Assembly: GCF_050920415.1 (NCBI RefSeq)
Contig: NZ_CP169309.1
Reading direction: 5' to 3' (one strand)
From: Escherichia coli
GTDB lineage: Bacteria; Pseudomonadota; Gammaproteobacteria; Enterobacterales; Enterobacteriaceae
DNA: 64,000 nucleotides
The notes below the pieces were generated by a model, which worked only from the letters and a program-made list of their open reading frames with translations, was not told the DNA's origin and did no database searches. Positions within the stretch are counted from its first letter, which is position 1, and the number at the start of each line of letters is the position of its first letter. Made by a program: the position numbers and the translations under genes. Below, piece by piece: positions 42,710 through 43,525 of this stretch.

Positions 42710-43525
42710 TCAGTGAACGGTATCGAGCAGCTTTAACAGCTCAGGGAATCGGGATTCGAAGAAATGCGGCTGCGTCTCGCGCGGATTTGCAGGACTGGTG
42801 ATGTTCTTGCCGAACATGCAGCCTTTCGCCGTCAGCGACCAGAATTTTTTGATGTTGTTAATCGCGGTACGGCTGTATCGTTCGCGTTGTTCAACGATCC
42901 CCAGCTTCGCCATCTGGTGATATGCCTGATTAGCCGTCAGGCGGATACCATACTGCTTCAGCAGTGCACTCAGCGACAGCGTAGGGCGGCTTGAACCATC
43001 TGGCGCATCAGCAGGTGCATCAATGGCATAGATCGGCATAAGTTCAGGAAGACCTGCTACCTTTGATAATTTCTGGTATGCACCAAGTTTCGAGGAGTTT
43101 GACAGATTTAGAGTCTTTGCTGCTGATTCAAGCAGAATGACCCCGGATTTAATTTTGTCGGATGTGGTTTCTTCTGGTGATGAATTATGAAGCGCATCAA
43201 AAGTACGTATCACTTTTAAGCTGAATGCCGGGCTGATCCACATTGCATATGCATAGACCAGCTCTTTACAGACATACGTCCCACCATTGCGCCCCTGAAT
43301 GGTGATGACAGGAATACTACGGGAATCTCCCGTAGTTTCTTCTTCCAGTAATTCCACAAGAGCCTTCGTTTCAGGACGACGCATAAACTCGTGAACTTCC
43401 AGCGAACGGGAGGAGCGATTCTCACCAGCGGCAAGAAGAGCAGCTTTCTGAAGGTCGTTAAGACAGTAGTTAGATTCAAAGTACTGGCGCACAGAAACGC
43501 CATCAATTACAAGCAACTGATTCAT
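42710..43525 (-). CDS. KilA-N domain protein; ORF extends to 43621
   Basis: MNQLLVIDGVSVRQYF...VITIQGRNGGTYVCKELVYAYAMWISPAF is a KilA-N-like N-terminal domain. Confidence 0.6.
   Translation of the reverse strand: MNQLLVIDGVSVRQYFESNYCLNDLQKAALLAAGENRSSRSLEVHEFMRRPETKALVELLEEETTGDSRSIPVITIQGRNGGTYVCKELVYAYAMWISPAFSLKVIRTFDALHNSSPEETTSDKIKSGVILLESAAKTLNLSNSSKLGAYQKLSKVAGLPELMPIYAIDAPADAPDGSSRPTLSLSALLKQYGIRLTANQAYHQMAKLGIVEQRERYSRTAINNIKKFWSLTAKGCMFGKNITSPANPRETQPHFFESRFPELLKLLDTVH

What the first reader, a model, noticed from the sequence alone, without database searches (positions are those of the whole stretch)
42710..43525. KilA-N domain protein in the nin region
KilA-N domains occur in antirepressors and also in recently described prophage-encoded abortive-infection proteins of the BstA type. 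This ~270-300 aa protein could be either; its position in the nin region rather than beside the repressor makes a defence role uncertain.
Basis: inference. Interest (0 to 1): 0.35.

Follow-up and report, generated by a model that had tools for sequence, protein, structure and literature searches.

The report
Common prophage KilA-N regulator, not BstA
This is an intact, very common early gene of E. coli lambda-like prophages that encodes a two-part DNA-binding-type protein of the domain-swapping 'Bro/KilA-N/Rha/Ant' group; it is not a relative of the BstA phage-defence protein, and its exact job has never been tested.

Summary

It is not BstA. The PADLOC BstA model gives no hit, BLASTP gives E=0.2, and profile-profile probability is 1-9% for either domain. 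It sits about 5 kb from the repressor gene, with no promoter-like or terminator-like site of its own.

It is not orthologous to a characterised antirepressor either. Its N-domain is homologous to P1 KilA (hhalign 99.7%). Its C-terminal 150 aa is a separate, confidently folded module with no Pfam model and no solved relative, and it does not match KilAC/ANT, P22 Ant, P1 Ant or HK022 nin-region ORFs.

That C-module is swapped among KilA-N, Rha, Bro-N, ORF6N, AntA and P22_AR_N proteins. One Bro-N version sits in the Arc/Mnt-controlled 'ant' slot of a P22-like phage.

Most likely this is an accessory lytic-phase regulator or antirepressor-like protein, with a hypervariable KilA-N segment. It is ordinary and of low interest.

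The parts
42710..43525 (-). Complete CDS of the KilA-N protein (271 aa plus stop), identical to RefSeq WP_001072669.1
   Evidence: 100% identical in phage PhiR49_1 and 99.3% identical to SfIV gp44
43184..43498 (-). KilA-N (APSES-fold) domain, residues 10-114
43283..43450 (-). Hypervariable segment inside the KilA-N domain, residues 26-81 (helical insert plus loop). Alleles differ here and some carry tandem 12-aa repeats.
   Evidence: Mean identity 0.41 and entropy 1.43 bits, against 0.84 and 0.61 for residues 165-271, over 104 close homologues; alignment A2; repeat-bearing allele P0036
42719..43180 (-). C-terminal module, residues 116-269: a helical hairpin, a conserved extended loop (LPxYAIDAP...GSSRPT), then a two-helix plus four-strand plus helix unit that looks winged-helix-like. 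It has no Pfam model.
42764..42811 (-). Near-invariant motif GKNITSPANPRETQPH, residues 239-254 of the C-module
   Evidence: G239 and N241 are invariant; K240, E250, T251, Q252 and P253 are >=90% conserved across 57-90 diverse sequences; identity 0.99 for residues 241-250 among close homologues
43526..43676 (-). 151-nt spacer between rusA and the KilA-N gene, specific to this allele. It contains the RBS, no promoter-like or terminator-like site on the - strand, and two copies of CCCNAAATTTG.
   Evidence: The spacer is only 19 nt in Lys8385Vzw and 16 nt in ST64B.
43677..44072 (-). rusA (Holliday-junction resolvase), the conserved upstream neighbour
   Evidence: Pfam RusA E=6e-15; same order in Lys8385Vzw and ST64B, with rusA not annotated in the SfIV record
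42179..42694 (-). 171-aa ORF 15 nt downstream. An optional cargo gene, absent in SfIV and PhiR49_1 and present in Lys8385Vzw.
   Evidence: phrog_2539, unknown function; no Pfam or PADLOC hit
41180..42169 (-). DUF968/HNH gene, the conserved downstream neighbour, followed by Q (40797-41162)
   Evidence: Pfam DUF968 E=4e-80; Phage_antitermQ E=2e-51

Best explanation
The gene encodes an accessory delayed-early protein of a lambdoid prophage. It belongs to the domain-swapping 'Bro network' of phage DNA-interactive regulators (KilA-N, Bro-N, Rha, ORF6N, AntA, P22_AR_N).

Shown:
- It has two independently folding modules: a canonical KilA-N/APSES domain and a conserved ~150-aa C-module.
- It is co-oriented with, and tightly packed among, the early genes between the replication genes and Q.
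- It has no recognisable promoter or terminator of its own.

Inferred:
- It is made only after the prophage repressor is inactivated, or on infection, by read-through from the rightward early promoter.
- The KilA-N domain binds DNA, and residues 26-81 set allele-specific recognition.
- The conserved C-module supplies a common effector function: dimerisation plus a second winged-helix-like contact, or binding of a protein partner such as a repressor.
- The net role is regulatory, either modulating transcription or acting antirepressor-like on the phage, on co-resident prophages or on satellites. It is not BstA-type abortive infection.
For: Classification:
- Pfam KilA-N.
- hhalign to the P1 KilA family over residues 4-119, probability 99.7%.
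- Full-length match to phrog_129, E=4e-109.

The C-module is an independent, swapped unit:
- In the 1.8-billion-representative search, many proteins match only residues ~120-267.
- Among 90 carriers the N-terminal partners are KilA-N 35, Phage_pRha 25, Bro-N 9, ORF6N 5, AntA 2 and P22_AR_N 1.
- The domain-swapping Bro network is described in PMC10111431.

Link to antirepressor-type genes:
- A Bro-N protein with this C-module (49.7% identity over 153 aa) lies directly after an Arc-like gene, which is divergent from an Mnt-like gene, in a P22-like phage.
- This is the position of P22 ant.

Operon context:
- All genes from cro to Q are on one strand.
- No - strand terminator-like site and no upstream promoter-like site was found.
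- The spacer to rusA is only 16-19 nt in other alleles.

Mosaic pattern:
- The 3' 322 nt are 95-97% identical across alleles whose 5' parts are too diverged for megablast.
- Residues 26-81 have 0.41 mean identity.

The gene is carried by the annotated phages SfIV, PhiR49_1 and several Stx phages.
Against: - No member of this exact family has been tested experimentally, as far as the searched literature shows.
- DNA binding, the target sites and any protein partner are all inferred.
- The winged-helix reading of the C-module rests on weak matches: Foldseek E>0.4 and sub-threshold PadR/GntR/MarR Pfam hits in a few members.
- The 'ant slot' evidence is positional and concerns a paralogue with a different N-domain.
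- Expression timing was not measured. The promoter scan is a simple consensus scan and cannot exclude a weak internal promoter.
Confidence: 0.6

Rival explanations
1. It is a true antirepressor. The protein binds and inactivates CI-type repressors, either its own as a commitment feed-forward or those of co-resident lambdoid prophages, causing cross-induction. The variable KilA-N segment or the C-module would give partner specificity.
For: - The C-module is shared with AntA and P22_AR_N proteins and with a Bro-N protein in the Arc/Mnt-controlled ant slot.
- The APSE homologue lies next to a c4/isrK antisense RNA plus Bro-N and Rha cluster that resembles P1 immI.
- E. coli genomes carry up to 4 copies, so several alleles can coexist in one cell.
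Against: - No sequence or profile similarity to P22 Ant or P1 Ant1, nor of the C-module to the KilAC/ANT domain.
- The resident repressor YmfK is annotated as a LexA family protein, so (inference) it may be RecA-cleavable and need no antirepressor.
- The gene is expressed downstream of the repressor-controlled promoter, so it cannot start its own induction.
- KilA-N is a DNA-binding fold.
Confidence: 0.22
2. It is a BstA-like abortive-infection defence protein that blocks replication of competing phages.
For: - A KilA-N-type N-domain plus an uncharacterised C-domain of similar total size, 271 aa against 307 aa.
- A weak PADLOC hit to the candidate PDC-S22, 36 bits on residues 63-118 only.
- A hypervariable segment, which could reflect an arms race.
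Against: - The PADLOC BstA model does not hit it at E<=1, yet hits BstA-BTP1 at 1.9e-124.
- BLASTP E=0.2.
- hhalign probability 5.6% for the whole proteins, 1% for the N-domains and 9% for the C-domains.
- BstA homologues carry PF26567 and none of this family does.
- It is about 5 kb from cI, inside the early operon, not directly downstream of the repressor with its own promoter.
- No aba-like repeat-flanked element spans the start codon.
Confidence: 0.05
3. It is a host-takeover or host-killing early protein, in the manner of P1 KilA or P4 Kil/Eta. It would bind host DNA or a host factor to arrest a host process during lytic growth.
For: - The N-domain is clearly homologous to P1 KilA, whose product 'can kill host' according to the P1 record annotation.
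- Early-operon position.
Against: - Only the N-domain is shared with P1 KilA; the C-module differs.
- The killing mechanism of P1 KilA is itself unknown (own knowledge).
- There are no toxicity data for this family.
Confidence: 0.1

Closest known systems
Phage P1 KilA (KilA-N + KilAC/ANT)
   Same: The N-terminal KilA-N domains are homologous: hhalign probability 99.7%, E=4e-25 over residues 4-119, and about 37% identity by tblastn. Both are two-module proteins of about 270 aa expressed from a repressor-controlled early promoter.
   Different: The C-terminal halves are not detectably related. P1 KilA has PF03374 KilAC/ANT. The window protein has no Pfam hit there, and hhalign gives 6%. P1 kilA precedes repL in the lytic replicon, whereas this gene lies between rusA and DUF968/Q.
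BstA (BTP1 abortive-infection protein, Owen et al. 2021, PMC8585504)
   Same: Prophage-encoded, with an N-terminal KilA-N(-like) region and an uncharacterised C-domain in a two-domain layout of about 300 aa.
   Different: - No sequence or profile homology in either domain.
- BstA does not even reach Pfam KilA-N.
- Different C-domain: PF26567 in BstA.
- Different locus: BstA sits directly downstream of cI.
- No aba-like element here.
'Bro network' of domain-swapping phage and satellite proteins (Iyer et al. 2002, from own knowledge; PMC10111431)
   Same: It has one of the network's N-domains (KilA-N). Its C-module is exchanged among KilA-N, Rha, Bro-N, ORF6N, AntA and P22_AR_N proteins, which is exactly the published behaviour of the network.
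   Different: [quoted passage not shown] It is an unnamed segment.
P22 Ant (antirepressor of immI)
   Same: A paralogue carrying the same C-module, with Bro-N at its N-terminus, occupies the Arc/Mnt-controlled ant position in a P22-like phage.
   Different: No similarity to the P22 Ant protein itself (P22_AR_N/P22_AR_C). The window gene is in the early operon, not in an immI region.
HK022 Roi and P22/phi80 Rha (nin-region DNA-binding proteins; own knowledge)
   Same: The same kind of genomic niche: an accessory DNA-binding-type gene between the replication genes and Q in lambdoid phages.
   Different: No tblastn or HMM match to any ORF of the HK022 nin region. The Rha-family protein of this same prophage (46571-47722) is unrelated in sequence.

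Membership tests
KilA-N domain proteins (Pfam PF04383) | Significant match to the KilA-N profile | tested here: met
   57.6 bits against a gathering cutoff of 23.8, E=1.3e-15, residues 10-114; hhalign to the P1 KilA family 99.7%
KilA-N domain proteins (Pfam PF04383) | APSES-type alpha/beta DNA-binding fold | tested here: met
BstA abortive-infection family | Sequence or profile homology to BstA (PADLOC PDLC02356; phrog_6287; PF26567 C-terminal domain) | tested here: not met
   No PADLOC BstA hit at E<=1, whereas BstA-BTP1 scores 1.9e-124. BLASTP E=0.2. hhalign 5.6%, 1% and 9%. The family carries PF04383 only, never PF26567.
BstA abortive-infection family | Gene placed directly downstream of the prophage repressor, as in BTP1 and many homologues | tested here: not met
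   cI-like ymfK is at 48605-49279 (+). The gene is about 5 kb away, on the opposite strand, in the early operon between rusA and Q. Compare BTP1.
BstA abortive-infection family | Cognate aba DNA element: a short repeat-flanked sequence spanning the start codon | tested here: inconclusive
   Only chance-level short repeats straddle the start (D3, 14 nt at 86%, 184 nt apart). The CCCNAAATTTG pair is upstream only, and the start-proximal copy (43537-43547) is broken in the 99%-identical SfIV allele. aba elements are not conserved in sequence, so absence cannot be proven in silico.
BstA abortive-infection family | Abortive-infection phenotype: block of phage DNA replication | not testable with these tools
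   Needs phage challenge assays.
KilAC/ANT antirepressor-type proteins (PF03374; P1 KilA, P1 Ant-like) | C-terminal KilAC/ANT domain | tested here: not met
   No PF03374 hit at E<=1, and none among 90 C-module carriers. hhalign of the C-module against the KilAC part of the P1 KilA family gives 6%. The A1 versus A6 comparison aligns only the N-domain.
P22 Ant antirepressor family | P22_AR_N and/or P22_AR_C domains; similarity to P22 Ant | tested here: not met
   No Pfam hit. The C-module HMM does not match P22 Ant. One C-module carrier has P22_AR_N as its N-domain.
Bro network of domain-swapping phage regulators | Carries a network N-domain, and its other segment recurs with other network domains | tested here: met
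   KilA-N N-domain. C-module partners: Phage_pRha 25, Bro-N 9, ORF6N 5, AntA 2, P22_AR_N 1. Network definition in PMC10111431.
Bro network of domain-swapping phage regulators | DNA binding or a regulatory activity | not testable with these tools
   Needs EMSA, ChIP-seq or genetics.

The most novel reading that the evidence does not exclude
The conserved C-module (no Pfam model, no solved relative, invariant GKN...NPRETQPH motif) could be a new effector domain. The hypervariable KilA-N segment could mediate allele-specific recognition in conflicts between co-resident lambdoid prophages or satellites, for example selective cross-induction of rival elements or interference with them during the lytic phase.
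Probability: 0.12. Interest if true: 0.5.

Novelty: already known. Interest (0 to 1): 0.12.

Why it matters
It matters mainly as a clean negative. A KilA-N hit in a prophage should not be read as BstA-type defence, because BstA is a separate family with its own C-domain and its own locus.

The small residual value is that about 42% of complete E. coli genomes carry a relative of this gene. It combines a hypervariable recognition segment with an unnamed, strongly conserved C-module, and no one appears to have tested its function. A simple deletion and expression study in SfIV or an Stx phage would annotate thousands of genes.

Tried and rejected
1. BstA membership. The PADLOC and PHROG models, BLASTP and three hhalign comparisons were all negative.

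2. C-module as KilAC/ANT, P22_AR_C, P1 Ant, Roi or the Rha C-terminus. Pfam, an HMM built from 90 carriers and hhalign were all negative.

3. Solved-structure relatives.
   - phmmer against PDB sequences gave nothing below E=0.1.
   - For the C-module they gave generic helical-hairpin matches or weak winged-helix matches.

4. An own promoter or terminator around the gene. None was found on the coding strand.

5. A cognate DNA element.
   - CCCNAAATTTG occurs twice upstream and nowhere else in the 64 kb (expected 0.14; 2 of 100 shuffles reach 2).
   - The start-proximal copy (43537-43547) is split by an 11-nt insertion in the 99%-identical SfIV allele, so I treat it as unproven.

6. An RNA element in the region. 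There was no Rfam match better than E=0.3.

7. The longer 303-aa reading frame. Rejected because the extensions are not conserved.

8. Literature. No functional study of this family turned up.

Full report
WHAT IS THERE

The window is part of the chromosome of E. coli strain MFDS1022581 (100% match over 7 kb). The annotated stretch fetched around the finding covers window 28000-59000. Within it, window 28000-56300 carries a lambdoid prophage integrated next to yjjG, running from head and packaging genes to the integrase. RefSeq marks the portal, a lysis gene and the phage Dam methylase as frameshifted, so the prophage is probably decaying.

The finding corresponds exactly to the RefSeq CDS WP_001072669.1, 'KilA-N domain-containing protein'. 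It runs 43525 to 42710 on the - strand, 271 aa, with a GGAGA ribosome-binding site 7 nt upstream of the ATG. A longer in-frame ORF starts at 43621, but homologues annotated with such extensions show no conservation upstream of the shared MNQL/MNNL start.

Pfam KilA-N matches residues 10-114 at E=1.3e-15.

CONTEXT

All genes from the cro-like ymfT to the Q antiterminator lie on the - strand, with short or overlapping junctions. The order is:
- ymfL
- a Rha/Ash protein
- a 74-aa ORF
- an O-like replication protein
- PerC
- Dam (frameshifted)
- a 108-aa protein that is only a LexA DNA-binding domain
- RusA
- the KilA-N gene
- a 171-aa ORF
- DUF968/HNH
- Q

 The cI-like repressor ymfK is divergent, about 5 kb away.

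A consensus scan found no promoter-like site upstream of the gene and no terminator-like site on the coding strand between rusA and DUF968. The 151-nt spacer after rusA is peculiar to this allele: in Stx phage Lys8385Vzw it is 19 nt and in ST64B it is 16 nt.

The rusA, KilA-N, (optional 171-aa gene), DUF968, Q order recurs in Lys8385Vzw and ST64B. SfIV shows the KilA-N, DUF968, Q part, with rusA not annotated in that record. The feature lists for PhiR49_1, SfV, SfII and many Stx2 phages name the same neighbouring genes. I infer that the gene is transcribed with the delayed-early genes after repressor inactivation. This was not measured.

HOW COMMON

- The protein is 100% identical in phage PhiR49_1 and 99.3% identical to SfIV gp44.
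- Its 90%-identity cluster has 674 member sequences.
- 2727 homologues were found at E<=1e-5 among the candidates screened.
- A DNA search found relatives in 2281 of 5426 complete E. coli genomes, with up to four copies per genome. Only 185 genomes have this allele over at least 80% of its length.
- It matches phrog_129 ('transcriptional regulator', an untested label) over its full length.

ANATOMY

An AlphaFold model built from a 57-sequence alignment is confident (pLDDT 90). Its pTM of 0.59 fits two domains without a fixed mutual orientation.

N-domain:
- It is homologous to the KilA-N domain of phage P1 KilA (hhalign 99.7%, E=4e-25).

C-terminal residues 116-269:
- They form a helical hairpin, a conserved extended loop, and a two-helix plus four-strand plus helix unit. 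A separate model has pLDDT 92.
- No Pfam model covers this module.
- No PDB sequence matches it.
- G239 and N241 are invariant and K240 and E250-P253 are nearly invariant, within the motif GKNITSPANPRETQPH.

THE C-MODULE IS A SWAPPED UNIT

In the exhaustive search of 1.8 billion representatives, many proteins match only residues ~120-267. Among 90 carriers, the N-terminal partners are KilA-N (35), Phage_pRha (25), Bro-N (9), ORF6N (5), AntA (2) and P22_AR_N (1). [quoted passage not shown] The present C-module is not one of the ten Pfam families listed there.

One carrier, P0170, has Bro-N at its N-terminus and a C-module 49.7% identical over 153 aa. It lies immediately after an Arc-like gene (39% identity to P22 Arc). 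That gene is divergent from an Mnt-like gene (44% identity to P22 Mnt) in a P22-like phage. This is the position of P22 ant.

In APSE-7, the full-length homologue (34% identity) lies just upstream of isrK/C4 antisense RNAs and Bro-N and Rha genes. That arrangement recalls P1 immI.

These are positional hints that the module works in antirepressor-type proteins, not proof.

MOSAICISM

Among 104 close homologues:
- Residues 26-81, a helical insert inside the KilA-N domain, have mean identity 0.41 to the window protein.
- Residues 111-120, the linker, have 0.10.
- Residues 82-110 have about 0.9.
- Residues 165-271 have 0.84, and residues 241-250 have 0.99 (alignment).

At the DNA level, the 3' 322 nt are 95-97% identical between alleles whose 5' parts no longer align. 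Some alleles carry tandem 12-aa repeats in the variable segment, and recombinants between N- and C-types exist. I read this as a variable recognition segment joined to a constant effector module. That reading is an inference.

IS IT BstA? NO

- BstA from BTP1 was fetched through its published aba sequence.
- It hits the PADLOC BstA model at 1.9e-124 and phrog_6287. The window protein hits neither.
- BLASTP between the two gives E=0.2.
- Profile-profile comparison of the two families gives 5.6% for the whole proteins, 1% for the N-domains and 9% for the C-domains.
- BstA homologues carry PF26567. This family carries only PF04383.
- BstA lies directly downstream of cI. This gene does not.
- The only PADLOC hit is 36 bits to the candidate PDC-S22, over 56 residues of the KilA-N domain. 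That reflects a shared domain, not family membership.

IS IT A CHARACTERISED ANTIREPRESSOR? NO

An HMM of the C-module finds nothing in P22 Ant, P1 Ant1, P1 KilA, any ORF of the HK022 nin region (where roi lies), or the Rha protein of this same prophage. hhalign of the C-module against the KilAC/ANT part of the P1 KilA family gives 6%.

MOST LIKELY MECHANISM

It is most likely an accessory lytic-phase regulator. The KilA-N domain would bind DNA with allele-specific recognition. The constant C-module would provide dimerisation, a second contact or a protein partner.

My probabilities are:
- about 0.6 for this general reading;
- 0.22 for a true antirepressor;
- 0.1 for a host-killing or host-takeover function like P1 KilA;
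- 0.05 for BstA-like defence.

Shown: the domain identities, the swapping, the operon position and the mosaic pattern. Inferred: DNA binding, expression timing and the function of the C-module.

VERDICT

This is an ordinary, already annotated, very common prophage gene of untested function. It is not a BstA-type system. The literature searches found no functional study of this family.

Noticed in passing
window 42179-42694 (-): A 171-aa ORF 15 nt downstream of the KilA-N gene is a presence/absence polymorphism. It is absent in SfIV and PhiR49_1, where KilA-N abuts DUF968, and present in Stx phage Lys8385Vzw. It matches phrog_2539 (unknown function) and has no Pfam or PADLOC hit.
   Followed up: partly
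window 43537-43547 and 43651-43661 (-): CCCNAAATTTG occurs twice in the 151-nt spacer upstream of the gene and nowhere else in the 64 kb (expected 0.14; 2 of 100 shuffles reach 2). The start-proximal copy (43537-43547) is split by an 11-nt insertion in the 99%-identical SfIV allele, so its significance is doubtful.
   Followed up: partly
window 46571-47722 (-): A second Bro-network protein sits in the same early operon: 383 aa with Phage_ASH and Phage_pRha domains. It is unrelated in sequence to the KilA-N protein and lacks its C-module.
   Followed up: partly
window 44069-44395 (-): A 108-aa protein consists only of a LexA DNA-binding domain, with no S24 peptidase part. It overlaps rusA by 4 nt. 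It is conserved at this position in SfIV, Lys8385Vzw and SfV-like phages.
   Followed up: no
window 28042-29642, 34172-34638, 36103-36743, 44392-45044: RefSeq marks the portal gene, a lysis gene, a hypothetical gene and the phage Dam methylase as frameshifted. The prophage is probably defective although the KilA-N gene is intact.
   Followed up: no
window 40265-40711 (+): A 148-aa lipoprotein-like ORF lies on the opposite strand in a 38.6% GC pocket just downstream of Q, which looks moron-like. It has no Pfam or PADLOC hit.
   Followed up: partly
window 38290-39641 (-): A 352-aa DNA methyltransferase (PADLOC MTase_II, E=1e-154) has no restriction gene found among the few neighbouring proteins scanned. 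It is followed by phage tRNA genes: Arg-tct and a CAT-anticodon tRNA that RefSeq calls Ile.
   Followed up: partly
window 54054-54773 (-): A 239-aa ORF lies in a 32% GC island next to the integrase. It has no PADLOC hit and could be cargo of unknown function.
   Followed up: partly
L008 (APSE-7) 4001-6708: The 34%-identical full-length homologue ('protein G') lies directly upstream of isrK-like and C4 antisense RNAs and then Bro-N and Rha genes. This layout resembles P1 immI (c4-icd-ant).
   Followed up: partly
L012 5276-6801 and L013 3244-4769: A P22-like phage has an immI-type cassette (Mnt-like gene divergent from Arc-like gene) in which the 'ant' gene is a Bro-N protein carrying the same C-module as the window protein.
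   Followed up: yes
protein P0036 (E. coli allele): The hypervariable KilA-N segment contains tandem copies of a 12-aa unit (NLGVGSFNETTQ). This suggests length variation by repeat expansion in the specificity region.
   Followed up: no
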